Assembly (NCBI GenBank): GCA_963837465.1
Contig: CAWINB010000004.1
Location: forward strand, 793,078-857,077
Length of the DNA stretch: 64,000 nt
Direction of reading: 5' to 3'
Origin: Candidatus Doudnabacteria bacterium
GTDB lineage: Bacteria; Patescibacteriota; Doudnabacteria; UBA920
The notes under the pieces: generated by a model
The model's input: the letters and a program-made list of their open reading frames with translations, nothing else
Told to the model about the DNA's origin: nothing
Database searches by the model: none
Translations under genes and position numbers: made by a program
Shown here: positions 5,318 to 60,780 of the stretch, one piece after another
Position numbering within the stretch: the first letter of the stretch is position 1
Layout of the letters: every line of letters begins with the position of its first letter

Positions 5318-8300
5318 ATGAATAAACTCACCTTCACCAAAAGCGGAAAATATTTATCATTTTTCAATTTCAGGATCGGTACTGTTATGGTGGCGATTTT
5401 GGCTATTTCCGTTGTTGGAATTATAGCGCCCCGCAAAGTTGATACTACAAAAGCTGAGGATTGCGCCGATGTTGAGCAAATTCCTACTGTGCCGACATTT
5501 GATCCATTTACCATTGTACCCCAGAATAGCGACGGCTCCTATACAAATACGGCGGGTTCCAATTGTGATGATTTCCCCGAACTGTCGGTTAAGGAATCCA
5601 CCACAGATAGCTATTTTCCTTCCATAAATGCCCAAAGCGGCGACCAGCTTGTTGTGAGCACTTACATCCACAACGGAGCCAGCCAGGATTTAGGCACCCA
5701 GGACGAGGCTTTTAATATCCAGGCTAATTATAATGTTGATACTACTTCCGGTACCAGCCACAACATAACTGTAACGTTAACAGGACAGAATATCAACGGG
5801 AGCCAGATGCAGCCAAAGTCGGAAACGATTACCATAAATACTCCGGCCGGCGCGCAGATTCAGGTAGTTCCGGGCACGGGAGTAATTGAAGATAATAATT
5901 CCAACCCGACCGGTTCGGCCGCGGTAAGCAATGGAAATTTTACGGTTAATTTGGGCAACCAAATGGCTTGTTTTGATTTCGCCCGTTTCTTTAACTTTAC
6001 GGTGCAGGTTGTGGGCGGACAGGCGGCCTCAACCCCTCCCACTGGTACCATTTCCGCTAATTTGGGCGGACAGGTTGGCGGACAGTGTCTTTTGAACGCT
6101 ACCGTTAACTGGTCCACGCAGAATGCCGGCCAGGTTTTGGTAACTGTCAGCAATCCCAATTTAAATTCCAATAATTATTACGACAACGACACAATTTTTT
6201 CCGAAAATCCCCAGGGACCGGCCAACGCTTCCTGGATAACGCCCAATACCAGCTATCGTTTTACTTTATGGGCTGTTGTGCCCAGCGGTACTTCCGGATC
6301 CGCCCAACAGACATTTTTTGTCAGCGGCGGCAGCACCCAAAGTTTTAATGTCATTGAACTTTATGAAACCTGGATTACCGGCGGATCTTTAAACTGCGGA
6401 ACCACTCCTCCTCCGCCCGCCAATACGCCGCAAAGTTTTAGTGTATCTATAACTCCCGGTACGGTTTGTGTCGGCTCGCAATCCAACGTTGTTATTTCCA
6501 ACGCCACCTCAGGCTTAAACGGCGATGAAATTTTCTGGACCTCCACTTTAAACGGCAATACTACCGGCGAAAATATGTCTGGATACGGCCAGTATGTAAC
6601 CAACGGCGGCTTTAACGCCTCAACAAATGCCTGGACCAGCAGTGAAATTGGCACTTGGGTTAAGACCGCGACTATTGGCGGCGTTTCCGTAAGCGCTCCC
6701 GCTTTTGTTGTCCAAAATTGTTCCCAACCCACCCCGCCCGTCCCCCAGAGCTTTAATTTGTCCATAACCTCCGCTTGCGTTAACCAACAGTCTACTGTGA
6801 ATATTTCCAACGCCACCTCAGGCTTAAATGGCGATGAAATTTTCTGGACATCTAGCTTAAACGGCAATCCTACAGGTGAAAATTTGTCCGGGTATAACCA
6901 ATATGTAACCAACGGCGGCTTTAACGGTCCTACCAGCACCTGGACCGCGGCGGAAGCCGGATCGTGGACTAAAATCGCGACCATTGGCAATACCACGGAA
7001 ACCGCTTACTTTAATGTTTATCCTTTAAGCGACACGGCTGATTGCGGCGGCGGGCAGGCGCAAACTTTTACTGCCACAGCCTCGGCCTCCGCCACAGCCT
7101 CGGCCAGTTGTTCCAACGGAACTTCCGCCTCCGCCACAGCTTCCGCCTCTGCTACAGCCACCAGTTCCATTAGCCAGCAGGACGCGCAAAACAAAGCCCA
7201 GGCTAATGCTCAGTCGCAAGCCCAGGCTAATGCTCAGGCTAATGCCAGCGCCTCTTGTCCGGCTTCATCTCCGGCGCAGTTAACTTGCAGCGCCAATCAG
7301 ACTTCTGTTCCCTTAGGCAGCCCCGCAACCTTTAATGCTTCCGGCGGCACCGCTCCTTACACCTGGACCGCGGCCGGCGGTGATTCCGCTACCGGCAATC
7401 CTTTTATTGTTAACTTTGCTTCCGCCGGCAGCAAAACTGTCAGCGTCAGCGATAGTAGAGGAGTAGCAACTACTTGCGGCGTGACTGTCACGTCCTCAAA
7501 CGTCTGTACCGTAAACAGCAACTATGCTTTAAACTCTTCAGCTCCGGTTAAAAACGGCTCTACTTATTCGGTCGCTCTGAATTGGTCTTCCACCGGCAGC
7601 AATCAAATCAAACTCACCGAAGTAAATGGCTCCGGGGAAACCACTTTAACCACCGGTTCCGGCAGCGGCAGCTTTACGGTTACCGGACTTGCCCCGGGCA
7701 CCAGCTATATCTTTAAAATTTATGATGCTTCGTGCGGCAACTTCTTAACATCCGCCCAAGTTACCATACCTGCCAACCCGGGCCAGCTAAGCTGCGGCGC
7801 CAACGTCTCTTCCGCCAATATTGGCGACACAGTTATTTTTACCGCCCAGGGCGGCAACGGAGTTTACACCTGGGCTACCAGCAACAACAGCGATGCCGGT
7901 AACGGCAGCCAGCTTAACGTTAACTTCCAGTCCGCCGGCAACAAGAGCGTAACTTTAAGCGACAGCGCCGGAGACGCGCCGGCTACTTGCGGCGTGGTGA
8001 TTGCCGCTCCTGCCCAAACCCAAAGCACTGGTAACTGCGACAACGATTCCAGTTCCTGTAACAACAATACTAACACCAATAACGATACCAGCTCCGGCAC
8101 CAACAGCTCCAACCAGAATAACAACAACAATGTCAACGGCAACAACAACACCATTACCAACAGCAACGAGAATTGCGTTAATAATTCCTGCGATACTACC
8201 AACACCACCAACAACGTTGTCTATATAAACAGCGCCGGCAGCGTTGTTCCGGCCAATCAGTTCAGCCAGCTCTCTGTAACCAAAATGGTTAGCGCAAACG

Positions 8301-11781: not shown

Positions 11782-13647
11782 ATGCGTTCAAAATCAAAAA
11801 ATTTCCCTTTTTCCGTTATCGGCCTGATTTTTTTATTTGGCGCGGTTTTTTCCCCGTTTTCACCGGTTTTCGCAGCGCCGGTCGTTTATGCTGATAGCCA
11901 GCCGGAGCTTTTTACGGTAAAGCTTAAAAGTTCCGGCGACTTCGGTCGGTTGCTGGCTGTCGGCGGCAGCATCCATCACTTATTTTTGGGCGATAATAAT
12001 CCCAGATTTGAAAATATTTACGATTTTACTTCGGGTTATTCTTTGGGTGTCCTGGAAAAAGATTTGCAAAACACTTTTGTTTATTTACAGGCCGAGCAAA
12101 CAACCGAGGCCGCGGGAATAGTGGTGGATGACCCCGGCTTTACCACAAATCCTTTGGATGTAGACAAGCAGTGGGGTTTAATTAAAACCGGCTTTGACCA
12201 GGCCTGGGAAAAAACCACGGGTTCGCAAAGCAATATCGTAGCCATTATAGATACCGGTATTGACGCCACGCACCAGGATTTGCAGGCTATAAATTATGTG
12301 CAGGGTTATGATTTTGTCAACCAAAAACCCATAGCGCCGGGCACGAACTCAGACGACAACGGCCACGGCACTTTGGTTACCGGTGTTTTAGCCGCCACGG
12401 CCAATAACGGGCTTGGCATAGTCGGTACGAATTGGCATATATCGATTATGCCCATAAAAGCCCTGGATTCTTCCGGACAGGGAGACGCCGGCACGCTGGC
12501 TCAGGCTATTGTTTGGGCCACGGACCACGGGGCGCAGTTTATAAATTTAAGTGTCGGCGGCGTGGGTTTTGGCCAGGATGCAACTTTATCCAATGCCATC
12601 TCTTACGCTTTTAATAAAAATGTGGTCATTGTGGCCGCGGCCGGCAACGATACCAACGCCGCGGGGCAAAGCCTGGACGAAAACCCCATCTTCCCGATTT
12701 GCGATGACAACAATTACAATATGGTTATAGGTGTGGCGGCCACTGACGTGAACAATCAGAAAGCCGACTTTTCCAATTACGGCCGCAATTGCATAGATGT
12801 GGACGCGCCGGGCAAGCGTATTCTTTCCACCATCAGTATTGATCCTGTTACAAAAAAACCGACGCCAAATTCCTACGCCTACGCTTCAGGCACTTCGCTG
12901 TCCGTGCCTTTTGTGGTCGGGCAGGCCGCGCTTATAAAGACCCTTTATCCTTCCGCCACCAACATCCAGATTCGGGACCGGATTATCGCCACGGCCGATT
13001 CAATAGACAGCCTAAATCCCACCCAATGCGGCGGCGGTTCCTGCGCCGGACTTTTGGGTGCCGGCGAAATAGACGTGCCCGCCAGTTTAAACCAGCCGAT
13101 TTCCCAAATTTTTTCCGAGGGCGACCTGGTAAAAGTCAGCGACGAGAACGGCGCCATTTACCAGATTTCTGGCGGTCAAAAACGCCTGGTTTCGCCTTTC
13201 GTTTTCAATCAGCGCTTTAGCGACTCCCCGCTAAAAACCGCTACTTCCGCCCAGCTGGCCGATTACCCGGAAGGCGCTTACGTTACGCCGCTTGACGGTA
13301 CTTTGGTTAAGTTTAACCAAAGTCCGGCGGTTTATATTATGGAGGAGGGCCAAAAATCGCCAATAACTTACCAGGTTTTTACGCAGAGAAATTTAAATTT
13401 TTCCAGTGTCAGCACTCTCAGTTCCCCGGAACTTAATTCCTGGACAACCGGTAATTTTTTTCCGCCGCTTGACGGTACTTTGGTCCGCGGGCAGAAAAAC
13501 CCAACGGTTTACTGGGTGGTGGACCAGGCCTTGCATCCTGTGGACAGAGCTTTTTATCTTAACAGGGGCCTGAATATTTTTCCGTTTATGCTGGTGCCTG
13601 ACACGGACATTTCCAGCTACTCTCAGGGCCAGGCTTATATCAGCTAA
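11782..13647 (+). CDS. Secreted subtilisin-like S8 serine protease with a C-terminal repeat module
   Basis: Signal peptide; catalytic triad in AIIDTGID / NGHGTLV / SGTSLSVPFVVG; C-terminal ~220 aa carries DGTLV..AVY repeats shared with the next gene. Confidence 0.85.
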   Translation: MRSKSKNFPFSVIGLIFLFGAVFSPFSPVFAAPVVYADSQPELFTVKLKSSGDFGRLLAVGGSIHHLFLGDNNPRFENIYDFTSGYSLGVLEKDLQNTFVYLQAEQTTEAAGIVVDDPGFTTNPLDVDKQWGLIKTGFDQAWEKTTGSQSNIVAIIDTGIDATHQDLQAINYVQGYDFVNQKPIAPGTNSDDNGHGTLVTGVLAATANNGLGIVGTNWHISIMPIKALDSSGQGDAGTLAQAIVWATDHGAQFINLSVGGVGFGQDATLSNAISYAFNKNVVIVAAAGNDTNAAGQSLDENPIFPICDDNNYNMVIGVAATDVNNQKADFSNYGRNCIDVDAPGKRILSTISIDPVTKKPTPNSYAYASGTSLSVPFVVGQAALIKTLYPSATNIQIRDRIIATADSIDSLNPTQCGGGSCAGLLGAGEIDVPASLNQPISQIFSEGDLVKVSDENGAIYQISGGQKRLVSPFVFNQRFSDSPLKTATSAQLADYPEGAYVTPLDGTLVKFNQSPAVYIMEEGQKSPITYQVFTQRNLNFSSVSTLSSPELNSWTTGNFFPPLDGTLVRGQKNPTVYWVVDQALHPVDRAFYLNRGLNIFPFMLVPDTDISSYSQGQAYIS

Positions 13648-13673: not shown

Positions 13674-15539
13674 ATGCTCCTTTCCCGGATAAAAAAAATA
13701 ATTGCCTGCGCGTTGCTGCTGAGTTATCCGTCCGTAGTCTTTGCCCAGGCTGTGGATCCCAACGCCGTGGATCCGGCTTTTAACCCCAGCCTGCTCATTT
13801 CCGACAGCGCGTTTTCCGATACCCAGACTTTTGGCGGCGCGGCCGGCATCCAGCAGTTTTTGGAAATCAAAGGTTCGCCTTTGGCAAACACCAGCGTCGG
13901 TTTTTTGGCCGAGCTTAAGGAACCAAACGCGATTTTGCTTAAGGAAGGACTGGACGATCCCGAACCGAATCTGCCGCAGCTTCGCACAGCCGCGCAATTA
14001 ATTTGGGACGCTTCACAAAGCAGCGGGCTTAATCCTCAAGTGATTTTGGTAACCATGGAAAAAGAGCAGAGTTTGATAGACGGGCAGTTTTCCTCGGCCG
14101 GTGATTTGCAAACGGCTCTGGACCACGCTATGGGTTTTGGCTGTCCCGACTCCACGGGTTGCGATGATTTATTTCCGGGTTTTTACTACCAGCTGTTTGG
14201 CAATTATGATTCCAGCGGCAACCGTTATTTGGGAGCGGCCAAAAGCCTTATGAAGTCTTTTAGCACGCCGGGAGGACGGGGACCGGACATCAACGGCCAG
14301 GCTGCCGTTACCGGCCAGACTGTGGATATCCAAAATAGTTTGGGAGGTTTCGACAATATTGCCGCTGACCAGCTTGTCCGGCTGGGCGATAACGCCACGG
14401 CCGCGCTTTACCGCTATACGCCCCATGTTTTTAACGGCAATTATAATTTTTGGAAATTTTTTACTTTGTGGTTTAAATACCAAAACGGCACACTGGTGGC
14501 GTTATCGGGCGACCCCAATACTTATGTTATAGAAGACGGAGGCAAACAATTGGTGCCTGCTTTTGTGGCCCAGGCGCGCGGTTTGAATTTGGCTTCTAAA
14601 ACTACCATTTCTCCCACGGAATTTGCGGATTATCCCACCGGCCAGATTTACACTCCGGCCGATAATACCGTCATCCAAACCCCGGACGGACAAACTTACG
14701 TCTTTGTAAACGGCCAAAAACATCCGGCTTCGGCCTTTGTAATCAGCCAGCGCGGTTTGGGCACATCCACTCCTCTTAGCGCTTCGGCCGCCGATGCCTC
14801 TTTGTTCCCCACATCTTCGGTCCTGCCGCCCAAAGACGGCACGGTAATCCGCGGTAAAACCGAGCCGGCTGTGTATTTGGTCAGGAACGGACAGATTGAA
14901 ATTTACACCGCTTACACTTTTGCCCAAAATAAAATCAAGTCCGGGCAGATTGTGATTGTGCCGGACAATGAGATAAGCGCCTACACTCAAAATGGTCTTG
15001 TTCCGCCGCGGGACGGCAGTTTAGTCAGGACGGCGGACAACGCCACGGTTTACCTGGTCCAGGACGGCACCAGGCACGCGGTGATTTCCGATGTCTTTAA
15101 AAACCAGGGCTACAGTTACAATAATGTCGGGACTATTTCCGATCCCCAAATTAACGCCCTGCCGGTGGGCGCTTATGCCCAGCCAAAAGACTACACTTTC
15201 TTCGCGGTTGATTCCAAAACCGGTCCGCTCTATGAATTTAAAAATGGCGTGACCCACTCAATCTCGTCTTTCGTGGCCAAGCAAAGAGGGATAACGCCGG
15301 ATTACGTCTTTAGTAACGCCGTGTTCGTGGAGTGGTTCGGCGGCATTCCGGTTCCGCCCAGGGACGGGACATTGCTTAAAGGTGATGCCAGCGCCGCCGT
15401 TTACCTGGTCAAAAACGGCCAGCTAAACCCGCTCACTGCCGCGCAATTCGCCGCCGGCCGCTACAGCGCCAAAAAAATCGTAACCCTGCCCCAAGCCGAA
15501 ATAAACTCCTACCCCACGCCGAACTCGGTGACACAGTAG
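13674..15539 (+). CDS. Secreted protein built from at least 5 copies of a ~60-aa repeat (P-[KR]-DG-[TS]-L-[VI]-[KR]...AVYLV.NGQ...)
   Basis: Signal peptide MLLSRIKKIIACALLLSYPSVVFAQA; repeats seen directly in the translation. Confidence 0.7.
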   Translation: MLLSRIKKIIACALLLSYPSVVFAQAVDPNAVDPAFNPSLLISDSAFSDTQTFGGAAGIQQFLEIKGSPLANTSVGFLAELKEPNAILLKEGLDDPEPNLPQLRTAAQLIWDASQSSGLNPQVILVTMEKEQSLIDGQFSSAGDLQTALDHAMGFGCPDSTGCDDLFPGFYYQLFGNYDSSGNRYLGAAKSLMKSFSTPGGRGPDINGQAAVTGQTVDIQNSLGGFDNIAADQLVRLGDNATAALYRYTPHVFNGNYNFWKFFTLWFKYQNGTLVALSGDPNTYVIEDGGKQLVPAFVAQARGLNLASKTTISPTEFADYPTGQIYTPADNTVIQTPDGQTYVFVNGQKHPASAFVISQRGLGTSTPLSASAADASLFPTSSVLPPKDGTVIRGKTEPAVYLVRNGQIEIYTAYTFAQNKIKSGQIVIVPDNEISAYTQNGLVPPRDGSLVRTADNATVYLVQDGTRHAVISDVFKNQGYSYNNVGTISDPQINALPVGAYAQPKDYTFFAVDSKTGPLYEFKNGVTHSISSFVAKQRGITPDYVFSNAVFVEWFGGIPVPPRDGTLLKGDASAAVYLVKNGQLNPLTAAQFAAGRYSAKKIVTLPQAEINSYPTPNSVTQ

Positions 15540-25770: not shown

Positions 25771-25846
25771 CAAATTTCAAACAAAATCCCAAAAGTCAAA
25801 ATTTAATTATTTGACATTTATTGGAAATTTGAAATTGGAAATTTGA
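25750..25846. repeat. CAAATTN heptamer run (x5) and its inverse complement (GGAAATTTGAAATTGGAAATTTGA) flanking a TTGACA box
   Basis: Direct reading at the ctpA-alaS junction. Confidence 0.6.
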
Positions 25847-27801
25847 TATTATTTAAAATGCCCAACATTACCGCTCAGGAACTCCGAACCAAATATCTTG
25901 AATTTTTTAAATCCAAAGGCCACGCTATCATCCCTTCGGCGTCTTTGGTGCCGGAAAACGACGCTACAACTTTGTTCACAGGCAGTGGTATGCAGCCAAT
26001 GGTACCTTATTTGCTGGGCGCGCGGCACGCCAAAGGCGCCAGGCTGGCCGACTCGCAAAAATGTTTCCGTTCCCAGGACATAGAAGAGGTCGGCGATAAC
26101 CGCCACACGACTTTTTTTGAGATGCTCGGCAACTGGTCGCTGGGCGATTATTTTAAACAGGAGCAGATTCCCTGGATGTTTGAGTTTCTAACCGGCGAGG
26201 TCGGCCTTGACCCAAAAAATTTGTACGTTACCGTTTTTCGCGGCAAGCAAGATATAGGCGTGGCGCGCGATGAGGAATCGGCAACTATTTGGGAAAGCCT
26301 GTTTATGGGAGCCGGTCTGGACGCAAAAATTGTGGATTTTCCGGAAAGAGACGGTTTGCAAAACGGCAGGATTTTTTATTATGACGAAAGCAAAAACTGG
26401 TGGTCGCGGGTCGGCGTAACGGCCAATATGCCGGTTGGGGAACCCGGCGGGCCTGACTCGGAAATGTTCTGGGATTACGGGGCGCATTTGCTAATCCATG
26501 AAAAATCTCCATACAAAGACCGGCCTTGCCATGTTAATTGCGATTGCGGGCGCTTTGTGGAAATCGGCAATAATGTGTTTATGCAGTACGTTAAAACCCA
26601 AACAGGGTTTGAAAAACTGCAGCAAAAAAATGTGGATTTTGGCGGGGGACTGGAAAGAATCCTGGCGGCGGCCAACGGCCAGCAGTCGGTTTTTGATACC
26701 GACATTTTTGACCCGATGTTCCAGGTCCTGGAGCTGGACCAGGAAATAATGACCAACGACGAAGTCCGTAAAGCGCGGATTATTTTGGACCATGTCCGCG
26801 CGGCCGTATTTATTGTCGACGACGGCATTGAGCCGTCCAACAAGGACCGTGGTTATGTGCTTCGCCGTTTGCTTAGGCGCGCCATGGTTATGGGGCGTTT
26901 GTTGAATTTAAAATTGCACTGGCTGGAGGCATTAGTCGGAAAAGTTATAGCCACCTACGCCCAAGCCTATCCCGATTTGGTGGAAAATTCGGAAAATATT
27001 TTTGAGGTTATAAAAAATGAGCAGGAGAAGTTTGAGGGAACGCTGGAAAAGGGGTTGAAGGAATTTGAGAAGCTAGTGAGGATGCCATCCGATGTAGGGG
27101 CCGGGCTTGCCCGCCCGCTTTCTGATGACGGGCGGCTAAAGCCAGCCCTTACAGAATCATTGATAAGCGGAAAAGATGCTTTTGACCTTTATCAAACTTA
27201 CGGTTTTCCCTGGGAACTTACCAAAGAACTGGCCGAACAATCCGGACAAAAAATAGACCACGCGGAATTTGAATCCGAATTTAAAAAACACCAGGAACTT
27301 TCCCGCACCGCGTCCGCCGGGCAGTTTAAAGGCGGTTTGCAGTCGCGCTCGGATAAAATCGTGCGGCTCCATACCGCGACTCACTTGATGAACGCGGCGC
27401 TCCGCCAGGTGCTTGGCGACAACGTTTGGCAAAAGGGGAGTAATATTACGGAAGAAAGAACCAGGTTTGATTTTACGCATAATAAAAAAATGACGCCGGA
27501 AGAAATCCTGTCCGTGGAAGCTTTGGTCAACGACTGGATAGCGCGCGACTTAAAGGTAAAAAAAGAAATTATGCCCTACGAACAGGCTCGCCAGCTTGAT
27601 GCCATTGGCGTGTTCGGTGAAAAATACCCGGACACCGTGTCTATATATACGGTTTACGATGAAAAATCAGGTGAAATAATAAGCCGCGAATTCTGCGGCG
27701 GCCCGCACGTGGAGCATACGGGAGTAATCGGCAAGTTTAAGATACAAAAAGAAGAAGCCTCATCTGCCGGAGTAAGAAGAATTAAAGCAGTTATTAGTTA
27801 G
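25843..27801 (+). CDS. alaS: Alanine--tRNA ligase, short form lacking the C-terminal C-Ala/DHHA1 domain; start may be Met at 25858
   Basis: Class II catalytic core (FTGSGMQP, RHTTFFEMLGNWS), editing-domain HxxxH and CGGPHV; ends after the editing domain at 652 aa. Confidence 0.85.
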   Translation: MILFKMPNITAQELRTKYLEFFKSKGHAIIPSASLVPENDATTLFTGSGMQPMVPYLLGARHAKGARLADSQKCFRSQDIEEVGDNRHTTFFEMLGNWSLGDYFKQEQIPWMFEFLTGEVGLDPKNLYVTVFRGKQDIGVARDEESATIWESLFMGAGLDAKIVDFPERDGLQNGRIFYYDESKNWWSRVGVTANMPVGEPGGPDSEMFWDYGAHLLIHEKSPYKDRPCHVNCDCGRFVEIGNNVFMQYVKTQTGFEKLQQKNVDFGGGLERILAAANGQQSVFDTDIFDPMFQVLELDQEIMTNDEVRKARIILDHVRAAVFIVDDGIEPSNKDRGYVLRRLLRRAMVMGRLLNLKLHWLEALVGKVIATYAQAYPDLVENSENIFEVIKNEQEKFEGTLEKGLKEFEKLVRMPSDVGAGLARPLSDDGRLKPALTESLISGKDAFDLYQTYGFPWELTKELAEQSGQKIDHAEFESEFKKHQELSRTASAGQFKGGLQSRSDKIVRLHTATHLMNAALRQVLGDNVWQKGSNITEERTRFDFTHNKKMTPEEILSVEALVNDWIARDLKVKKEIMPYEQARQLDAIGVFGEKYPDTVSIYTVYDEKSGEIISREFCGGPHVEHTGVIGKFKIQKEEASSAGVRRIKAVIS

Positions 27802-27804
27802 GTT

Positions 27805-28056
27805 ATGTTTACAAGAGAGCATGCAAAATTACCAAGAAACCCTGAGACCTATCCTGTGAAATTGGATATTGTGCCTTCCTTGGTAAATGACGAAAGAGAT
27901 CTCCGTGAACATTTAAATATGGGCAACAGGGTGGTGTTCGCAGGCTATGAATCTCCTCAGAGAGAAATTAAAATACTAGTAGGCACACAGGTTCATGCCG
28001 ACTTGGAAGCTGAACTGGGCTTGCCCACTTACCCCCCCCCCTTACTGGTAGCATAA
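27805..28056 (+). CDS. Hypothetical protein in an AT-rich, atypical-codon segment; the ORF is probably longer (to 28200) after correcting the C10 tract
   Basis: 83-aa ORF ends just after a C10 run; the +1 frame stays open to a TGA overlapping the next gene's ATG. Confidence 0.4.
   Translation: MFTREHAKLPRNPETYPVKLDIVPSLVNDERDLREHLNMGNRVVFAGYESPQREIKILVGTQVHADLEAELGLPTYPPPLLVA
28032..28041. repeat. C10 homopolymeric tract
   Basis: Direct reading. Confidence 0.9.
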
Positions 28057-28198
28057 CAATTGACAGAGAAGGAGTTTTAAAATGGAGCGATAATATAGAT
28101 TACTACTTTCAACAAATCGGAATTGATGACCAAAAAGCAAGAGAGTCTTTAAAAAATTCCACAATTGATAGAATTAAAAGAATTTTAGGTTTGATTAA

Positions 28199-29365
28199 AT
28201 GAAACTTGAATTTTATAATTGCCCAAAGCCGGCTGATGCAACTTCGGTAAAATTGCCGGAGACCCCGGAGTTCGTAAACTACGAGCCGGATTTTGGCATG
28301 ATGAAAGAAATATCAGCCCAATATCAGCAATATCCAAATATCCTGGTTATTGGCCACGGCGGCAGTATTACTTCTTTTTATGGTTTTTATAATGTTTTAA
28401 TTGAGCAGGCCAAAAAACAGGTTTATTTTTTATCTACGGTGGATCCCGATTATATTTTTGAGCTAAAAAAACAACTCAAACCCGAAAATACTTTGGTCAT
28501 CGCCGTTTCCAAATCCGGCGAAACCACCACCCAAATAGAAATGTTGGCCCAATTTTTGGATTTTCGGCTGTTGATTATTACCGGCAAAAGCAGTCCCCTA
28601 AGGGCTATAGGAGAAAAGCTGAACGCCAAAATCGTCACGCATCCCAGCATCGGCGGCCGTTATACCGGCCTTACAGAAGTCGGTCTTTTGCCCGCGGCCA
28701 TAGCCGGACTGGATGTGGAAGGGCTTTACGAGGGAGCCAAAAAGTTTTACCAGGTTTATGACAAAGAAAATTTGGCCTGGAAAGCCGCGTCGGTGTTTTT
28801 TCAACTGGAGCAAAAAGGTTTTGTAGATGTGTTTATGCCGTTTTATTCCCGCAATCTTTTTGCCATGGGAAATGTTATTGTCCAGCTCTGCCACGAATCT
28901 TTCGGTAAAAACCAAAAAGGCCAGACTTACTTTGCCCACGAAGCGCCGGAAAGCCAGCACCATACCAACCAAAGGTTTTTTGGCGGCCAAAAAAATATTG
29001 CCGGATTTTTTGTCTCCAGCGAAAGCTTTAACCATCCTGCATTGACCGTCTACCCGCCAGCCCTGCACAGCGTGCAAATTAAAGGCCGCGCCCTGTTTGA
29101 TATTAATAAAATTCCCCTGGAAAAAGCCCTGGAGTTTGAGCTTTACGGCACTTTGGAAGACGCGCGCATTAGCGGCATACCGTTGGCGCTTTTGGAGACG
29201 GCCAGTTTTTCCGCCCGCGAAATTGGCGGCCTGTTGGCTTTTTGGCAGCTCTACGCGGTTTACTCCTCGGCTTTGCGCCAGGTTAACCCCTTTGACCAGC
29301 CCCAGGTGGAAAACAGCAAGATTATCAGTTTCAATAAAAGATTGGCTTATAAGGGGTTGCTGTAA
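28199..29365 (+). CDS. pgi: Glucose-6-phosphate isomerase (short SIS-domain form)
   Basis: AVSKSGETTTQIE and GGRYTGLTEVGL match the PGI signatures. Confidence 0.7.
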   Translation: MKLEFYNCPKPADATSVKLPETPEFVNYEPDFGMMKEISAQYQQYPNILVIGHGGSITSFYGFYNVLIEQAKKQVYFLSTVDPDYIFELKKQLKPENTLVIAVSKSGETTTQIEMLAQFLDFRLLIITGKSSPLRAIGEKLNAKIVTHPSIGGRYTGLTEVGLLPAAIAGLDVEGLYEGAKKFYQVYDKENLAWKAASVFFQLEQKGFVDVFMPFYSRNLFAMGNVIVQLCHESFGKNQKGQTYFAHEAPESQHHTNQRFFGGQKNIAGFFVSSESFNHPALTVYPPALHSVQIKGRALFDINKIPLEKALEFELYGTLEDARISGIPLALLETASFSAREIGGLLAFWQLYAVYSSALRQVNPFDQPQVENSKIISFNKRLAYKGLL

Positions 29366-36541: not shown

Positions 36542-36757
36542 AGACATGACGGGGAAATGGAGGAAAATTATACGAGTAAACCGAAGATTCTACAAAAATT
36601 CGGCACGGCGGGCAGAGTGTAATTATCTGCCTTCCTTTCCGAGTTCATCAAAAAATTGGTGAATTGAGAAGGGGATATCGCTTGGTTTAATTTAAAAACG
36701 CCCGGCAGAACGATTTTATGCTATACTGTAGGAAATAATATAATTAAACTTAATTTT

Positions 36758-37536
36758 ATGGAATCAAATAATATTTTGCCAAAATGGTTAATAAATTGTT
36801 TGGGTGGTTTGCTGATACTTTTGGTGGCTTTGCTGGTTGTGCAAAAAGCTCAGGATTTGCATACGGCTTTTGCCAATAGTAAGCCAGCTAATACAATATC
36901 GGTTTCTGGTGAGGGTAAGGTTACCGCTACTCCGGATTTGGCTACTGTTACTATTGGTGTAATTTCGCAGGGCGTCGACCGTCGGCGGCCGTGCAGAGCC
37001 AGAATGATGATAAGGTAAATAAGGTTATTGCTTTTATTAAACAGCAGGGGATTGCGGACGCGGATGTTTCCACTTCCCAGTACAATATCCAGCCGCAGTA
37101 CGATTACACCAAGAGCCAGCCTGCAATTACCGGCTACCAGGTTAACCAAAGCGTGGTGGTTAAAGTACGCGGCGTAGATAAATCCCAAACAGTTTTAAAT
37201 GCTATTTTAGACGGCGCGGTAGGTAGCGGAGCCAACGAGATTGATGGTGTAGATTTGTCGGTGGACAACCCCGATGCCCTACAGGAACAGGCCCAGGAGC
37301 AGGCAATTTCCAATGCCAAACAAAAGGCTCAGGCGCTGGCCCAGGCCGCGGGTTTAACTTTGGGTAAAGTTGTTAGTGTTTCGGAAAATTCCGTAACTCC
37401 CGTTCAGCCGATGCCTTACGCCTTTAATTCCTCGCTGGCCATGGGAGCCGCTCCGGCCGCGGCTGTTGCCCCAAGCATCCAAACCGGCAGCCAGGAAATA
37501 GACGAGACAATGACGCTGACTTTTGAGATCAAATAA
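36758..37536 (+). pseudogene. SIMPL/DUF541 (BP26-like) periplasmic protein, frameshifted near 36975 (or a sequencing indel)
   Basis: ORFs 36758..37018 and 36991..37536 together give the SIMPL N-terminus (TISVSGEGKVTATPDLATVTIGV) and remainder (SAAVQSQNDDKVNKVIAFIKQQGI...) in different frames. Confidence 0.6.
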
Positions 37537-51156: not shown

Positions 51157-53905
51157 ATGTCATTTTTATCCAAAATTTTCAGCGGACAAAACAATTCCCT
51201 CGCCAAATTTTCCGGGGAGCTGGACGCGGTTAATGGTTTTAAGGAAGATGTGGAAAAACTTTCCCAGGAAGAGATTAAAGCGGAAATTTCAAATTTCAAA
51301 TTGGAAATTTCAAAGCTCGAATCGGACAGGGAAATTTTCGAGCAGCTGCAAAAAATCGCGTCGCGGGTTTTTGCCTTGACCAGGGAAGCGGCCAAAAGAA
51401 GCATCGGGCAGGAGCACTACGATGTGCAGCTGGCCGGAGGTTTTGTTTTGGCCGAAGGCAAGATCGCGGAAATGAAGACCGGCGAGGGGAAAACCTTAAC
51501 CGCTACTTTGCCTTTGGCTCTGTACGCTTTAGCCAGCAAAGGCGCGCACCTGGTTACGGTTAACGATTACCTGGCCCGCTGGCAGGCCAGCTTAATGGGT
51601 CCGGTTTACCGCTACCTTGGTTTGAGCGTGGCTTCCATCCAGCACGAAGCCAGTTTTTTATATGATCCTGACTACAAACCCGAGCAGGAAGAAATAGATA
51701 AGCTGGAAGGTGAAACCCAGGGGCTGATTATGGACGTTAAGCATATGCGCCCCATTTCCAGGCGGGAAGCTTACGCCGCGGAGATAACTTACGGCACCAA
51801 CAACGAATACGGTTTTGATTACCTGCGCGACAATATGGCCCAGCACCAAAACCAAATTACCCAGCGCGGACTTTTGTTTGCCATTGTGGACGAGGTAGAC
51901 AGCATATTGATAGATGAAGCGCGCACGCCGCTCATTATCAGCGCTCCGGACACCGAGCCGACCAGCAAGTATTACGACTTCGCGCGTTTGGTGGACGGCC
52001 TGGATGAAGCTACGGATTACACCGTGGATGAAAAACACAAAGCCGCCAGCTTAACCGACTCCGGCATCAACAAAATAGAAGCGTTGCTGAAAATCCCGAA
52101 TATTTATGATACCAGCAAAGGCGTTACAACCATCCACCATATTGAACAGGCTTTGCGCTCAAGAACTTTGTTTAAAAAGGACCGCGACTATGTGGTGCGC
52201 GAGGGTGAAATAATCATCGTCGATGAATTTACCGGCAGGCTGATGTTCGGCAGGCGCTACAGCGAAGGTTTGCACCAGGCCATAGAAGCCAAGGAAAATG
52301 TTAAAATTCAGCAGGAAAGCAAAACACTGGCTACAATAACTTTCCAAAACCTTTTTCGGCTTTATAAAAGACTTTCCGGCATGACGGGCACGGCCAAAAC
52401 CGAAGAAGAAGAATTTTTTAAAATTTATCAGCTGACCGTGCGGCAAATCCCGACCCACCGCCCCATGGTGCGCGAGGATTTGTCGGACTTGGTTTATAAA
52501 ACCGAAGACGCCAAATTCAGCGCCATAGCGCGCGAGGTCAAACAGCGGAACCAAAAGGGCCAGCCTGTGCTTATTGGCACCGTCAGCATCGCCAAAAACG
52601 AAATGCTGGCCGAGGTTTTAAAAAAAGAAGGGCTGAAGTTTGAAATTTTAAACGCCAAAAACCACGAACGCGAAGCGCACATTATTTCCCAGGCCGGACG
52701 CTTTGGGCAAATTACTCTGGCCACCAACATTGCCGGACGCGGCGTGGATATTTTACTTGGCGGCAATCCTGTTGATGATGAAGAAGCCGAAAAAGTCAAG
52801 CAGGCCGGCGGTTTGCATATTTTGGGCACGGAAAGGCACGAGTCGCGCCGCATAGACAACCAGTTGCGCGGCCGCGCCGGCCGCCAGGGCGACCCGGGAA
52901 GTTCGCAATTTTTTGTTTCCATGGAAGACGACCTGATGCGTTTGTTCGGCGGCGAGCGCATGAAAAATTTAATGACCAGGCTGGGCTTGCCGGACGAGCA
53001 GCCGATTGAGGCGGGGATGGTTTCCAAATCCATCGAAAGCGCGCAAAAAAGAATAGAAGGCCTGAACTTTGACACCAGAAAACACGTATTGGAATTTGAT
53101 GATGTGCTCAACCATCAAAGAAACGTAATTTACAAAAGGCGGCGGGGTTATCTGGCGGGGAACAATACCAAAGATGAAGATGGCAATGACATCAGCCTTT
53201 CCAATGAAATTTTAGAGATGATTCGCCAGGAAATCGGCGGCATTGTAAGCTACAACCTCAACCTGCTGGATGAATACGGCGGCAAAAAAGAGGACTGGGA
53301 CAATTTATTTAAAAATGCCAACATAATTATTCCGGTAACTCCGGAGCTGGTAAAACAGATTAAGGAAGAAACCGTTAACGCCGCTGATCGTGAATTCGCC
53401 GTCAGCGATGCCTTGTACAACGCGGCTAAAAAATTATGGGACCAAAAAGAACAGGAAATGGGCAAAGATGTGTTTGAAGGCGCGCAAAGGTTTATTGCCC
53501 TGCAGTCACTGGACCAGTTATGGATGGAGCATTTGGATACATATGGACCATTTGCGCGACTCGGTAAGGCTGCGCGGTTACGGCCAGCGGGACCCGCTGG
53601 TGGAGTATAAAAAAGAAGGTCACGGTATGTTCCAGCTGCTGCTTAAGGAGATTAGCAAACAAATTGTTTCCAGTATTTTTCACATCACAGCGCAAAGAGC
53701 TCCGCTTCCTTCGGTAATACCGGCCAATTTGGTAACAAATTTATCCGATGGCTCCTCGGGCCAAAATTCGTCGCCTGCCGAAAATATCGGCCGCAACGAG
53801 CCGTGCCCCTGCGGCTCCGGAAAAAAGTGGAAGAAATGCGGAATGTTAAACACGCCGGAGCATTTAGCAAAGATAAAAACAAAATCCCTAATCCCTAATC
53901 CCTAA
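51157..53905 (+). CDS. secA: Preprotein translocase ATPase SecA, +1 frameshift near 53542 (probably a sequencing indel), SEC-C zinc motif at the C-terminus
   Basis: DEAD motor domains; ORF 51112..53610 ends ...WMEHLDTY, then frame 2 continues MDHLRDSVRLRGYGQRDPLVEYKKEG...CPCGSGKKWKKCG. Confidence 0.85.
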
Positions 53906-53911
53906 TCCCTA
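53884..53911. repeat. Heptamer tandem repeat ATCCCTA x4 ending 4 nt before a start codon
   Basis: atccctaatccctaatccctaatcccta, then cttt ATG. Confidence 0.85.
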
Positions 53912-55125: not shown

Positions 55126-55185
55126 ACACTTTTTCTGCTCTGGGTACAGGATTATTTTTATAGTGTAAAAAGTTTTTTTAATGCT

Positions 55186-57467: not shown

Positions 57468-60066
57468 ATGAAAAAAATATCCGTACGATTGCCAGCTTAC
57501 ATCAAGCCCGAGCGTTATAGATTAGCAATTAAACCCGATTTTGAAGGTTTTATTTTTAGCGGCGAAGAGAGTATAGATTTGGTTTTGGGAAAATCCGTAA
57601 GCAGTATAACTTTGCACTCCAAGGAGTTGGAAATTTTTGATGTTGAATTCCAAATTTCTAATTCCTCCGCCAAAAGCGGATCGGCCGTCGGCGGAAAATT
57701 TCCAACCCAAAAGCATCATATACAATGAAAAAGCCGAAACCGCGACATTTACTTTTAGCAAAAAATTACCCAAAGGCAGGGGAGTGTTAAGTCTTAAATT
57801 TAAGGGGCTTTTGACGGATAAGTTGAAGGGTTTTTATTTAAGCAAGTACAAACACCAAGGCAAAGAAAAACATATTGCCACTACCCAGTTTGAGCCAACA
57901 GATGCCAGGCGCGCTTTTCCGTGCTTTGATGAGCCCGCGCAAAAAGCCGTGTTTGAGGTTAGCTTAAAAACCCCAAAAAATTTAACCGCGATATCCAACA
58001 CCATAGAAACAGAAATTTTGGAGCACGAAGGCGGCTACAAGGTGGTAAATTTTGCTCCGAGCCCAAAAATGTCAACTTACCTGCTTGCTTTTATAGTTGG
58101 CGACTTTGAGTTTATTCAAGCGCGTTCCAAAGACAATGTTTTGGTCCGCGTTTTTGTCACGCCCGGAAAAAAATCCCAAGGACAATTCGCTCTGAACACG
58201 GCCATAAGGGCTCTGGAATTTTACAATAATTACTTTGACATACCTTATCCGCTGCCGGTTTTGGACCTTATAGCGCTGCCGGATTTTGCCTCGGCCGCCA
58301 TGGAAAACTGGGGTGCCATCACCTATCGCGAGACCGCCCTTTTGGTGGATGAAAAGCAGACATCAGCGGCCAACAAGCAGTGGGTGGCCATTGTCATTGC
58401 CCACGAAATTGCACACCAATGGTTTGGCAATCTGGTAACAATGGATTGGTGGACCGATTTGTGGCTTAACGAGGGCTTTGCCTCGTATATGGAATACCTG
58501 GCCACGGACAAACTTTTCCCCAAGTGGCAAATGTGGGAGCAGTACGTTTCGGGCAGGCAAGCCGTGGCGCTTCGGCTGGACGCGCTCGGCACCAGTCACC
58601 CCATAGAAATAACCGTGCGTCATCCCGATGAAATTTCCGAAATTTTTGACCAGGTCAGTTACGCCAAAGGCTCCGTGGTAATTCGTATGCTGGCCAATTA
58701 TTTGGGAGAAACTGTTTTCCGCGACGGCCTAAGGCACTATTTAAAAAAGCACAGCTACGGCAATACGGTTACCGAAGATTTATGGAAGTCCTTTGAAGCT
58801 GTTTCCAAAAAACCGGTAAGTAAAATGATGAAGTTGTGGACCAAAAAAACCGGATATCCCCTGATATCCGCCGTTCGCGAGGGCCAGCAAACCAAACTGT
58901 CCCAGCAAAGGTTTTTTTCCAGCAGCCTGTCCGGGAAAAAAAATCGGGACAACACGGTTTGGAAAGTTCCGCTGGAAATTTTAAACTACAAAGGCCAAAA
59001 AAATAAATTTTTGCTGGACAAAAAGTCAGGCCTCATCGGGACAAACGGCAAAGGCTGGCTAAAAATCAATCACGGGGAAACCGCGTTGGTCAGGGTTAAA
59101 TATTCCGCCGGCATGCTTAATGAAATCAAGTCGGCAATCGCTTCCCGAAAATTGGGCCCGATTGACCGCCTGGGCATTATCCGAGACGCTTTCGGGCTGG
59201 CCGAAGCCGGTCATATGGCTACTGTGGAAGCTTTGGAACTGGCCAAATTTTACGGCCGGGAAGAAGCATTGCCGGTCTGGGAAGAAATTTCTTCGGGCGT
59301 AGCTTTGGCCGGCGGTTTTTATAAGGACGAAAAATGGTATAAGCATTTCCGGAACTACGCCCTGGGACTTCACAGGCCGCTGGCGCTTAAGCTGGGCTGG
59401 GAAAAAAAGAAAAACGAAAGTCATGCAACCGGGCTTTTGCGCGGCCTGGCGCTTTTTCAGGCGGGAAATTACGGTGATACCGCCGTAATAAAAAAGGCGC
59501 AAGCTCTTTTTGCCGCTCACTTAAAAGGCAGGCAAATATCTCCGGATGTCCGCGGCGTGGTCTATAATCTGGTGGCCCAAAACGGGGGATTAAAACAATT
59601 CAGCCAAATGGTCGGGCTTTACAAAAAAGCAAGCCAGCACGAAGAACAGGATAGGATTGGCCGGGCACTGGGAAGTTTTCAGGATAAAACAGTCCTTAAA
59701 AAAGTTTTGGAATTTGCCTTAAGCAAAAATGTGCGGGCGCAGGACAGCCCGAGCGTATTTATAGGCGTGGGCAGGAATTTTTACGGCGCGGATTTGGCCT
59801 GGGAGTTTTTAAAAAATAACTGGGATGAAATTTTAAAGCGCTATAATGTTGGCGGCCATCTTTTGGAGTGGTTTATTGTTCCGTTCGGCCGTTTTTATAC
59901 CACAGCCCAAGCCAAAGATTTTAAAAATTTCTTTAAAAAACACCCAACTCCCAACGTGTCCCGCGCCATCAGCCAGGTTCTGGAAAAAATTTATTCCAAC
60001 GAGGCGTGGATAAAACGGGACGGGAAGAATGTCGGTAAATGGCTTGAGGAGACAATTAACAATTGA
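57468..60066 (+). CDS. pepN: M1-family aminopeptidase N, frameshift in the N-terminal region at the A4 run 57695-57698 (likely indel error)
   Basis: HEIAHQWFGN...NEGFASY zinc motifs; ORFs 57468..57728 and 57637..60066 are joined by removing one A in ggcggaaaatttcc. Confidence 0.85.
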
Positions 60067-60780
60067 CGATCAACAATTGACCTTCGGCCTTTTCCAGCGG
60101 CATAAAAGCTTAAGCTATGGGATTTCGGAAAAATCCGACGGCTCTATGAAGCTGCAGGGTTCGGATGTTATGGCTGCAAAAAATCGGAGTAAGTTTTTTA
60201 AGTCCCATGACATCCGTACCGGACAAAATATCACGCCGCTGCAAAGCCATTCCGCCACTATCGCCAAAATTACCTCTGATGATAATCATCAGCCAAGCGC
60301 CGATGGCTTAATTACGGACGTTCCGGACATAAGCCTAACCGTAACCGTTGCCGACTGCTTTCCGGTTTATTTTTACAATCCTAAAACTTCTGCCATTGGG
60401 CTGGCTCATTGCGGCTGGCGGGGGATTGTCGCCGGTCTTCCATCCAAGATGGCGGGGCGATGATCTCGGCGCTAAATTGTCCCGCCGATGATATCCTCGC
60501 AGGCATTGGCCCTGGCATAAGAGCTTGCCACTTTGAAATCAAGCCCGATGTTTTGGAAGAGTTTAACGATTACCCGCTCCATATTAATTTTGTCGGCCAG
60601 AAAATTTTTGTTGACTTGCCCGCAATCATCACATCCCAACTAACAGCCGCGGGAGTTCTCAAACAGAACATCGCCGATTCCGGCCACTGTACCTACTGCC
60701 AAAAAGACAAATACTTTTCCTTCCGCCGCGACCATCCAAAAAAAGTCCGAGCCATGGTTGCTTATATTGGTTTAATTTAA
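60029..60780 (+). CDS. pgeF: PgeF/YfiH (DUF152) purine nucleoside phosphorylase / peptidoglycan editing factor, frameshift at the G4 run 60454-60457
   Basis: VADCFPVYF...GLAHCGWRG and C.YC...YFSFRRD motifs; adding one G restores ...KMAGAMISALNC... Confidence 0.7.

What the first reader, a model, noticed from the sequence alone, without database searches (positions are those of the whole stretch)
27805..28200. C10 homopolymer inside an ORF; one extra C extends the ORF to an ATGA overlap with the next gene (contingency locus or homopolymer error)
ORF 27805..28056 ends 4 codons after a 10-C run (28032-28041, encoding YPPPL). With 11 Cs the frame would run open for another 53 codons (...LTGSITIDREGVLKWSDNIDYYFQQIGIDDQKARESLKNSTIDRIKRILGLIK) and end in a TGA that overlaps the pgi-like ATG. 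With 9 Cs it stops immediately (TAG). 

The segment 27805-28200 is markedly more AT-rich, with different codon use (AGA, ATA, TTA), than the flanking housekeeping genes. That suggests acquired DNA. 

Poly-C/G tracts of 9 or more are classic phase-variation switches. Equally, this assembly shows other homopolymer indels.
Basis: seen in the sequence. Interest (0 to 1): 0.55.

Follow-up and report, generated by a model that had tools for sequence, protein, structure and literature searches.

The report
Poly-C frameshift in orphan gene
A run of ten Cs breaks the reading frame of a small, lineage-restricted gene of unknown function wedged between alaS and pgi in a Doudnabacteria (CPR) genome; the break is probably real rather than a sequencing error, but it is an ordinary slippage frameshift, and adaptive phase variation has not been shown.

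Summary
C10 lies at 28032-28041 and the 83-aa ORF stops 4 codons later. C11 (or C8) gives a 132-aa (131-aa) ORF whose TGA overlaps the pgi-like ATG.

The repaired protein belongs to a very small orphan family: five other members among billions of proteins. Wherever context is known, the members sit in the same alaS-X-pgi slot and are 120-139 aa long. One has the same ATGA overlap. The 53 codons after the tract are still open (chance 0.4%), align with the family and fold into the predicted domain. The lesion is therefore recent.

The assembly is noisy. SecA, a SIMPL gene and a YfiH-like gene are also frameshifted. However, four contigs assembled independently (Logan, run ERR10755945) cover 19.6 kb of the window. 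They repair the SIMPL break and a T5/T4 error, yet show the same C10. I therefore rate the tract length as genuine (about 0.8).

Best reading: a slippage-generated OFF allele of a dispensable slot gene, which can mechanically revert. A selected contingency switch (about 0.2) cannot be tested without reads, and no homologue carries the tract. An artefact is about 0.15. Programmed frameshifting is unsupported.

The function of X is unknown. Low to moderate interest.

The parts
25843..27801 (+). alaS (alanyl-tRNA synthetase, 652 aa). It is the upstream neighbour, and its stop codon lies 3 nt before the ATG of X.
   Evidence: Pfam tRNA-synt_2c E 1.6e-112 and tRNA_SAD. alaS-pgi synteny holds in about 40 related species.
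27805..28056 (+). Truncated ORF of gene X as assembled (83 aa). It covers the N-terminal 79 residues of the family domain plus 4 out-of-frame codons and a stop.
   Evidence: A profile built from four syntenic homologues, with no window sequence, hits it at E 2.5e-5 among 1,881 sequences (1,879 six-frame segments of the window plus two added sequences). The exact product is on record from NCBI/ENA and from Logan.
28032..28041 (+). C10 homopolymer (Tyr-Pro-Pro-Pro codons TAC CCC CCC CCC). This is the site of the frame break. C8 and C11 are the in-frame lengths.
   Evidence: The tract is identical in the independent Logan contig L001. It is absent from all homologues whose DNA is held.
28041..28202 (+). 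The C-terminal 53 codons of X plus the stop, displaced into the -1 frame (LTGSITIDREGVLKW...RILGLIK*). The TGA overlaps the pgi ATG (ATGA).
   Evidence: The frame is open in only 0.4% of shuffles, and the codon score is best in this frame. Adding it raises the profile score by 11.4 bits (50.4 vs 39.0, aligned to profile positions 7-121 of 122) or by 5.3 bits with the fully independent profile. The P0003 alignment runs across the junction. AlphaFold places strands 80-86 and 92-95 and two helices here. Homologue P0010 in L051 ends in the same ATGA overlap.
28199..29365 (+). pgi-like gene (388 aa, phosphoglucose isomerase family), the downstream neighbour. No terminator-like site on the + strand lies in the alaS-X-pgi junctions, so co-transcription is likely.
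   Evidence: Pfam PGI E 1.2e-8. 49 related loci were found. The terminator-like sites of the scan do not separate the three genes.
27778..27805 (+). The 3' end of alaS (AGAATTAAAGCAGTTATTAGTTAGGTTA). It is copy 1 of a short direct repeat whose second copy forms the 3' end of X.
   Evidence: the repeat finder D1, 71% identity over 28 nt, spacing 392. The alaS tail ...RRIKAVIS* resembles the X tail ...DRIKRILGLIK*. This may be a chance match.
28170..28197 (+). The 3' end of X (AGAATTAAAAGAATTTTAGGTTTGATTA), copy 2 of the direct repeat, immediately upstream of the pgi ATG.
   Evidence: In relatives without an insert, the alaS tail AGAATTAAAGC... sits at this same distance from the pgi ATG.

Best explanation
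Gene X is a small (about 130 aa), fast-evolving alpha/beta protein of unknown function. It occupies a variable slot between alaS and pgi in some Doudnabacteria.

In this lineage a Pro-rich loop (YP[K/P]L) became a pure poly-C tract. The dominant genotype carries C10, one base short of the in-frame C11 (or two more than C8). Translation therefore ends 4 codons after the tract. The product is 83 aa and lacks the C-terminal beta-hairpin and two helices of the domain, so the gene is effectively OFF.

The lesion arose by slipped-strand mispairing and is recent, because everything downstream is still intact. The same mechanism can restore the frame, so the locus behaves as a stochastic on/off switch. 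I judge this to be incidental, the first step of decay of a dispensable slot gene, rather than a selected contingency mechanism.

Shown: the tract, the frame logic, the homology and synteny of the repaired gene, the intact downstream frame, and the agreement of two assemblies.

Inferred: that the Logan run is an orthogonal, accurate data type, that slippage was the mutational mechanism, that the truncated product is non-functional, and that the switch is not selected.
For: **Tract and frame logic.**

**The repaired ORF is a real gene.**
- phmmer against 1.8 billion representative proteins finds P0003 (E 3.7e-8), aligned to query residues 12-99, that is, across the junction.
- A profile search adds P0006, P0009 and P0010, which are intact at 120-139 aa.
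- P0010, P0009 and the L014 and L021 copies all lie between alaS and pgi. P0010 ends in the same ATGA overlap.
- Profiles built without the window sequence score the repaired protein at 50.4 against 39.0 bits, and at 26.3 against 21.0 bits.
- The downstream frame is open by chance in only 0.4% of shuffles.
- The AlphaFold models integrate the post-tract strands into the fold.

**The tract length is genuine.**
- Logan contigs from run ERR10755945 cover 19,632 bp of the window.
- They differ from the window at four positions only: C/T at 36910, extra T at 36975 and 36982, and T5 against T4 at 55130-55134.
- Each difference restores an ORF in Logan: an intact 258-aa SIMPL protein and an intact 224-aa ORF with an ATGA overlap.
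- Across the tract Logan is identical to the window.

**Decay is plausible.**
- The L021 homologue is itself frameshifted. Its 74-aa product is recorded from NCBI, ENA and Logan on 4 contigs.
- The family is absent from most relatives.
- No homologue carries the tract.
Against: - The window assembly clearly contains indel errors. SecA (essential), SIMPL and a YfiH-like gene are frameshifted. A C tract of 10 or more is the hardest case for nanopore consensus calling (PMC9262707).
- I could not establish the sequencing platform of ERR10755945. Its independence is inferred only from the errors it repairs.
- A perfectly preserved downstream frame is also what an artefact would leave.
- The tract is a strong outlier in a genome that otherwise avoids C runs. 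That could reflect selection for mutability rather than accident.
Confidence: 0.55

Rival explanations
1. Selected contingency locus. The poly-C tract is maintained because rapid, reversible ON/OFF switching of X is advantageous. Switching might also affect translational coupling into pgi. The sampled population happens to be mostly in the OFF phase.
For: - C10 is the only G/C run longer than 6 in 64 kb, and CCC-CCC is otherwise avoided.
- Tract lengths C8 and C11 are ON, while C9, C10 and C12 are OFF.
- X is an accessory gene of atypical composition in a hypervariable slot. In relatives that slot holds DUF559, 23S-IVS/bAvd-like, NUDIX and DUF5674 genes.
- The downstream frame is fully preserved.
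- Relatives carry other long G/C tracts inside genes, including a C9 in what looks by eye like a glycosyltransferase (not scanned against Pfam) and a G8 at the 5' end of another slot gene.
Against: - There is no evidence of length polymorphism. Both assemblies give C10, and the C8, C9 and C11 products are absent from a 15-billion-protein collection.
- None of the five homologues has a tract at this or any other position.
- X is a small cytoplasmic-looking protein of unknown function, not one of the classic phase-variable gene classes.
- The tract lies 60% of the way into the ORF.
- pgi has its own AGGT 8 nt upstream of its ATG (read directly from the sequence).
- In a search of the paper library, none of the 10 listed top-ranked papers combined phase variation with Patescibacteria.
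Confidence: 0.2
2. Homopolymer-length miscall. The true sequence is C11, X is intact, and the frameshift exists only in the assemblies.
For: - At least three other conserved genes in the window are frameshifted, including essential SecA, whose relatives run straight across the break.
- Two of the window's indels are homopolymer-length problems: G4 where the frame calls for G5 at 60454-60457 (inferred), and T5 against T4 at 55130-55134 (from the Logan comparison).
- C tracts of 10 or more remain problematic for nanopore consensus calling, cytosines especially (PMC9262707).
- The required correction is a single-base undercall.
- The downstream frame is pristine.
Against: The independently assembled Logan contig L001 has the same C10. 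The same Logan run corrects every other discrepancy it overlaps, four positions in 19.6 kb, including clustered CGCG-to-CGTCG errors that look like systematic long-read miscalls. It is therefore not simply echoing the window's errors.
Confidence: 0.15
3. Recoding. Full-length X is made from the C10 template, either by -1 ribosomal slippage of tRNA-Pro on the C run or by RNA-polymerase slippage that adds a C to some transcripts.
For: Any register shift on a C run keeps codon-anticodon pairing. The tract encodes PPP, which from general knowledge is a ribosome-stalling motif. Long homopolymers are known sites of transcriptional slippage, which is established mainly for A/T runs.
Against: - There is no stimulatory structure downstream. 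The 89 nt after the tract fold at -5 kcal/mol, weaker than 190 of 200 shuffles (z +1.69).
- There is no Rfam match.
- The site is not conserved in any homologue.
- C CCC CCC is not a canonical X XXY YYZ heptamer.
- Nothing requires two products.
Confidence: 0.05
4. The 83-aa ORF is the functional product, or there is no gene here at all, and the downstream open frame is coincidental.
For: The 83-aa ORF is what gene callers report. P0003, the closest homologue, is only 98 aa.
Against: - Intact homologues are 120-139 aa and align end to end with the repaired protein.
- The open downstream frame has a chance probability of 0.004 and ends exactly in the family's ATGA overlap.
- The predicted fold places two strands and two helices after the break.
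Confidence: 0.03

Closest known systems
Simple-sequence (homopolymeric G/C tract) phase-variable contingency genes of Neisseria, Haemophilus, Campylobacter and Helicobacter (Moxon-type; from general knowledge)
   Same: A G/C homopolymer of 9 or more lies inside an ORF. Single-base length changes toggle between a full-length and a truncated product. The gene is accessory and has atypical composition.
   Different: No length polymorphism has been observed. The tract is not conserved in homologues. The gene class is unknown and is not surface, LOS or restriction-modification. The organism is a CPR bacterium, and my one literature search listed no paper combining phase variation with Patescibacteria among its top 10. 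The tract lies in the distal half of the ORF.
Homopolymer indel errors in long-read (nanopore) metagenome-assembled genomes (Sereika et al. 2022, PMC9262707)
   Same: The tract is a long C homopolymer and the apparent error is a single-base undercall. The same assembly carries several other frameshifts in conserved genes.
   Different: An independent assembly repairs the other indels it overlaps but gives the same C10 here.
Recent unitary pseudogenes created by slippage in reduced genomes, for example poly(A)-tract frameshifts in endosymbionts that are partly rescued by polymerase infidelity (from general knowledge)
   Same: There is a single frameshift at a homopolymer. The coding sequence downstream is otherwise intact. 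The genome is small and the gene dispensable. Leaky rescue by slippage is possible.
   Different: The tract is C rather than A/T, and rescue has not been shown. The genome is 46% GC and otherwise avoids C runs.
Orphan alaS-X-pgi slot protein family (unnamed): P0003, P0006, P0009, P0010 and the frameshifted L021 copy
   Same: Profile-level sequence similarity, the same slot, the same length once repaired, and the same 4-nt overlap with pgi.
   Different: Identity is only 20-25% (38-45% to P0003). The window copy alone carries the poly-C tract and a very AT-rich 3' third.

Membership tests
SSR contingency (phase-variable) locus | A hypermutable simple-sequence tract within the ORF or promoter | tested here: met
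   C10 at 28032-28041 lies inside the ORF and is the only G/C run longer than 6 in 64 kb.
SSR contingency (phase-variable) locus | Changes in tract length switch between full-length and truncated product | tested here: met
   In silico, C8 and C11 give 131 and 132 aa ending at the pgi ATG. C9, C10 and C12 truncate.
SSR contingency (phase-variable) locus | Tract-length polymorphism within or between populations | tested here: inconclusive
   No reads are available. Two assemblies of the same population both give C10. The C8, C9 and C11 products are absent from the 15-billion-protein collection. Two JGI metagenome scans found nothing.
SSR contingency (phase-variable) locus | The tract is retained in orthologues or sister strains | tested here: not met
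   The four homologous genes whose DNA is held (L014, L021, L051, L052) use mixed codons and have no tract at the aligned position. No closer strain was available.
SSR contingency (phase-variable) locus | A gene product of a class that benefits from switching (surface, glycosylation, restriction-modification, defence) | tested here: inconclusive
   There are no significant Pfam, NCBIfam, PHROG or PDB-sequence hits, and only one weak PADLOC hit (E 0.032, one of 8 members). Foldseek gives no significant match.
Long-read homopolymer assembly artefact | A long homopolymer in an assembly that shows other indel errors | tested here: met
   The SecA, SIMPL and YfiH-like genes are frameshifted and there is a T5/T4 discrepancy.
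Long-read homopolymer assembly artefact | An orthogonal data set gives a different, frame-restoring length | tested here: not met
   Logan contig L001 (ERR10755945) has C10. The same run repairs four other positions in 19.6 kb of overlap. The platform of the run could not be checked.
Programmed -1 ribosomal frameshift site | A stimulatory stem-loop or pseudoknot 5-9 nt downstream of the slippery site | tested here: not met
   The minimum free energy is -5 kcal/mol and z is +1.69, with 190 of 200 shuffles folding at least as well. There is no Rfam hit.
Programmed -1 ribosomal frameshift site | The shift site is conserved among homologues | tested here: not met
   Homologues are single uninterrupted ORFs without the tract.
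alaS-X-pgi slot protein family (orphan, unnamed) | Significant profile similarity over the whole length | tested here: met
   50.4 bits, aligned to profile positions 7-121 of 122. 26.3 bits (E 5.7e-7) with a profile that contains neither the window sequence nor P0003. phmmer to P0003 gives E 3.7e-8.
alaS-X-pgi slot protein family (orphan, unnamed) | Position between alaS and pgi, tightly packed against both | tested here: met
   Window, L051 and L052, and L014 and L021.
Recent unitary pseudogene | A disrupted ORF relative to intact homologues | tested here: met
   83 aa against 120-139 aa.
Recent unitary pseudogene | Further lesions accumulated downstream | tested here: not met
   The 53 downstream codons contain no stop, and the native ATGA overlap is kept. 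If this is a pseudogene, it is very young.

The most novel reading that the evidence does not exclude
The poly-C tract is a selected phase-variation switch in a Patescibacteria (CPR) genome. It toggles an orphan accessory protein in the hypervariable alaS-pgi slot, and may also modulate translational coupling into pgi. It could be part of a wider use of G/C-tract switches in Doudnabacteria, since relatives carry a C9 in what looks like a glycosyltransferase (by eye, not scanned) and a G8 at the 5' end of another slot gene.
Probability: 0.15. Interest if true: 0.6.

Novelty: new member of a known kind. Interest (0 to 1): 0.3.

Why it matters
If the tract length is genuine, this is a cleanly documented case of a homopolymer switching off a gene in an ultrasmall, uncultivated CPR bacterium. 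It would be a candidate for stochastic on/off variation in a group where my literature search turned up no such switch.

In practice the main value is methodological. The window comes from an indel-prone assembly, with SecA and other genes broken. Exact-product look-ups against independently assembled contigs can separate real frameshifts from artefacts. Here they rescued one gene (SIMPL) and a gene start (the 224-aa ORF at 55130-55134), and upheld the C10.

The work also defines a tiny orphan family and shows that the alaS-pgi junction is an insertion and turnover hotspot in Doudnabacteria.

Tried and rejected
2. **L017 and L022 slot ORFs.** They looked homologous by eye and in MAFFT. A profile built without them does not find them at E of 10 or less among 9,197 segments. 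I dropped them, and with them the idea that two X-family genes carry G/C tracts.
3. **More relatives and tract variants.** Two JGI metagenome scans found nothing. P0003 has no recorded contig.
4. **Testing Logan at the SecA and YfiH-like breaks.** Logan has no complete gene call there. A SecA C-terminal homology search returned only relatives of 74% identity or less. It confirmed that SecA is normally continuous, but it did not recover this organism's copy.
5. **Platform of ERR10755945.** It is not mentioned in the paper library.
6. **Promoter-spacer SSR, terminator, RNA element or tRNA at the site.** Nothing was found.
7. **Chimeric origin of the two halves, suggested by 43% against 28% GC.** Homologues are colinear over both halves, and only one of the three (L051) shows any such contrast, and a much weaker one (0.35 vs 0.29). 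This is unsupported but not excluded.
Full report
**1. Observation**

The window has exactly ten C at 28032-28041. ORF 27805-28056 starts 3 nt after the alaS stop and encodes 83 aa ending YPPPLLVA*. I varied the tract length in silico:
- C11 gives 132 aa and C8 gives 131 aa. Both end ...RILGLIK* with TGA at 28200-28202, overlapping the ATG (28199-28201) of a pgi-like gene.
- C9 and C12 stop two codons after the tract.

The tract is an outlier. G/C runs in the window number 1036, 237, 30 and 3 for lengths 3, 4, 5 and 6. There are none for lengths 7-9, and then this single run of 10. None of the 20 Pro-Pro pairs in 31 genes uses CCC-CCC.

**2. Composition**

- The part before the tract is 43% GC (GC3 0.43) and the part after it 28% (GC3 0.21). 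The window is 46% GC, and 31 genes have GC3 of 0.47-0.60.
- The codon log-likelihood is about 0 in the coding frames, against 0.25-0.56 for all 31 genes. It is still far better than in the other two frames, which score -0.8 to -1.6 and carry 5-8 stops each.
- AGA supplies 8 of 10 Arg codons, against 10% genome-wide.

**3. What the gene is**

The flanks are alaS (Pfam E 1.6e-112) and a PGI-family gene. The organism is a Candidatus Doudnabacteria-like member of the Patescibacteria. The PGI protein finds 49 loci in such genomes at 76% identity or less, and the gene lies on an 868,218-bp contig.

The repaired 132-aa protein ("X") matches no Pfam or NCBIfam family. Homologues are very few:
- A word-indexed search of 5.8 billion proteins found only the 83-aa fragment itself.
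- Exhaustive phmmer against 1.8 billion representatives found one real relative, P0003 (98 aa, E 3.7e-8). It aligns to query residues 12-99, that is, across the frame break.
- A profile search added P0006 (133 aa), P0009 (120 aa), P0010 (139 aa) and P0008 (74 aa).

Context could be recovered for P0010 (L051), P0009 (L052), the L014 copy and the L021 copy. In each case the gene sits between alaS and pgi. P0010 ends in the same ATGA overlap with pgi.

Profiles built without any window sequence support membership:
- One profile scores the repaired protein at 50.4 bits against 39.0 for the truncated form, aligned to profile positions 7-121 of 122.
- A profile of only the four syntenic homologues gives 26.3 against 21.0 bits. 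The N-terminal ORF is the top hit among 1,879 six-frame segments of the window (E 2.5e-5).

The post-tract frame is open in 0.4% of shuffles. AlphaFold models of X (pLDDT 71.6) and P0010 (pLDDT 81.3, pTM 0.78) give one alpha/beta domain, in which two strands and two helices lie after the break.

The 83-aa ORF is therefore the front of a real gene of about 130 aa. That gene is interrupted by a single length change in the tract, and the lesion is young.

**4. The slot**

alaS-pgi synteny holds in about 40 related species. In about half of them the two genes are 7-121 bp apart. In the rest the gap holds 0.4-1.6 kb of small genes:
- DUF559
- 23S-rRNA-IVS/bAvd-like
- NUDIX
- glyoxalase
- DUF5674
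- unknown ORFs
- X

The junction is a turnover hotspot, and X is one of its patchily distributed occupants. Two slot ORFs (L017, L022) looked like X by eye. A profile built without them failed to find them, so I excluded them.

No homologue has a C tract at the aligned position. The L021 copy is itself frameshifted, at a different, AT-rich site. Its 74-aa remnant is recorded from three sources on four contigs.

**5. Real or artefact?**

The assembly is noisy. Pfam shows three further split genes:
- A Cu-oxidase_4/YfiH-like gene (60029-60463 and 60409-60780, profile positions 2-128 and 131-229). A G4 at 60454-60457 should be G5.
- A SIMPL/DUF541 gene (profile positions 1-29 and 30-205).
- SecA. 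Its last scaffold helix and SEC-C motif are in another frame, after an extra base near 53536.

Relatives' SecA proteins run straight across that break. Long C tracts are the worst case for nanopore consensus calling (PMC9262707). On its own, this would favour an artefact.

The collection also holds contigs assembled independently from run ERR10755945 (Logan). Four of them cover 19,632 bp of the window (L001, L053, L054, L055). They differ from the window at four positions only:
- T4 instead of T5 at 55130-55134. This restores a 224-aa ORF with an ATGA overlap.
- C instead of T at 36910.
- No extra T at 36975 or at 36982, where the window reads CGCG as CGTCG. Together with the 36910 change, this restores an intact 258-aa SIMPL protein.

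Across the tract, Logan contig L001 is identical to the window over 4,315 bp, including C10. An assembly that repairs every other discrepancy it overlaps, but agrees here, is good evidence that C10 is the dominant genotype.

The caveat is that I could not learn the platform of ERR10755945. I put the probability that C10 is genuine at about 0.8.

**6. Mechanism**

From C11, the nearest in-frame state, a one-base contraction by slipped-strand mispairing gives C10. This assignment is an inference from general knowledge. The product lacks the C-terminal third of the domain, so X is effectively off. The same process can restore the frame, so the locus is mechanically a stochastic switch.

Whether selection maintains the switch is unresolved.
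- For selection: the tract is exceptional in this genome, the downstream frame is pristine, and the gene is accessory.
- Against selection:
  - No polymorphism is seen.
  - No homologue has the tract.
  - The gene class is unknown.
  - Another family member is plainly decaying.
  - The family has been lost from most relatives.

I favour incidental slippage in a dispensable gene (0.55) over a selected contingency locus (0.2).

Programmed -1 frameshifting is unsupported. The region downstream of the tract is less structured than shuffled sequence (z +1.69). There is no Rfam match and the site is not conserved. Leaky rescue by ribosomal or transcriptional slippage cannot be excluded (0.05).

**7. 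Comparison with known systems**

The locus works like a Moxon-type homopolymeric phase-variable gene. It fails or cannot be tested on the defining features of polymorphism and tract conservation, so I do not file it as one. It meets the surface criteria of a long-read homopolymer artefact but fails the decisive one, disagreement with an orthogonal data set. It is best described as a new instance of a known kind: a slippage frameshift in a homopolymer, inside an orphan gene.

**8. Verdict**

- The frameshift is probably real.
- Adaptive phase variation is unproven.
- The function of X is unknown.
- Interest is low to moderate (0.3).

The read pile-up test described under next steps would settle the main question quickly.

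Noticed in passing
window 51157-53902 (break near 53536-53545, GATACATATGGAC): SecA is split. The main ORF covers SecA_SW profile positions 1-151, and the remainder (SW 151-199 plus the SEC-C motif) lies in another frame. The window seems to carry one extra base in ACATATG. Relatives' SecA proteins are continuous across this point. This is almost certainly an assembly error, since SecA is an essential gene.
   Followed up: partly
window 36668-37536 (36910, 36975, 36982): The SIMPL/DUF541 gene is split into 86-aa and 181-aa products in the window. Logan contig L055 (ERR10755945) has an intact 258-aa gene. The window differs from it by a C-to-T change and two inserted T, both turning CGCG into CGTCG. 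That pattern looks like a systematic, possibly methylation-linked, long-read miscall.
   Followed up: yes
window 60029-60780 (G4 at 60454-60457): The Cu-oxidase_4/YfiH-like gene is split into 144-aa and 106/123-aa pieces. Adding one G (G4 to G5) gives a continuous 250-aa protein (...KMAGAMISAL...). No Logan gene call covers the site, so the true length was not verified.
   Followed up: partly
window 55130-55134: The window has T5 where Logan contig L053 has T4. The Logan version opens a 224-aa ORF whose ATG overlaps the stop of the upstream acetyltransferase gene (ATGA). The window version truncates it to a 203-aa call.
   Followed up: yes
loci L002-L049, about 400-1600 bp upstream of the pgi match (gap coordinates): The alaS-pgi junction is a hotspot for small accessory genes across Doudnabacteria-like genomes. 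It is empty (7-121 bp) in about half. Elsewhere it holds DUF559, 23S-rRNA-IVS/bAvd-like, NUDIX, glyoxalase or DUF5674 genes, by eye a toxin-antitoxin-like pair (not scanned), or orphan ORFs.
   Followed up: partly
window 27778-27805 and 28170-28197; L022 about 5950-5999; L015 about 5967-6000: The 3' end of X repeats the 3' end of alaS (AGAATTAAA...; ...RRIKAVIS* against ...DRIKRILGLIK*). The unrelated slot ORF of L022 also ends in an alaS-tail-like ...ARKIKAVLGY*. The 34-bp gap of L015 contains a second AGAATTAAAA. This could be a duplication scar left by insertions into the alaS tail, or it could be chance.
   Followed up: partly
L021 5621-5997: The X homologue in this relative is itself frameshifted (46 aa plus 74 aa) at an AT-rich stretch (TTTATATTATAG). 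The 74-aa remnant (P0008) is recorded from NCBI, ENA and Logan on four contigs, so this break is probably real.
   Followed up: partly
L013 728-736; L007 1684-1691; L017 5556-5563: Relatives carry other long G/C tracts, all in frame. There is a C9 inside a gene that by eye looks like a GT2 glycosyltransferase (...GLNPPPTST...; not scanned against Pfam), a G8 in what looks like a membrane-anchored protein, and a G8 at codons 6-8 of the orphan ORF in the alaS-pgi slot of L017. In 548 kb of related loci only 5 G/C runs are 7 or longer.
   Followed up: partly
window 53882-53910: Four tandem copies of AATCCCT overlap the last codons and stop of SecA (...KSLIPNP*) and the short spacer before the next ORF. 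A Logan contig begins exactly here.
   Followed up: no
window 25843-27801: AlaRS is only 652 aa and ends right after the tRNA_SAD editing-domain motif (Pfam residues 599-647). It appears to lack the C-terminal C-Ala domain of canonical bacterial AlaRS. X is not a detached C-Ala domain by Foldseek.
   Followed up: no
window 11782-13647 and 13674-15539: Two adjacent ORFs on the same strand, each of exactly 621 aa. They are probably tandem paralogues. I did not examine them.
   Followed up: no
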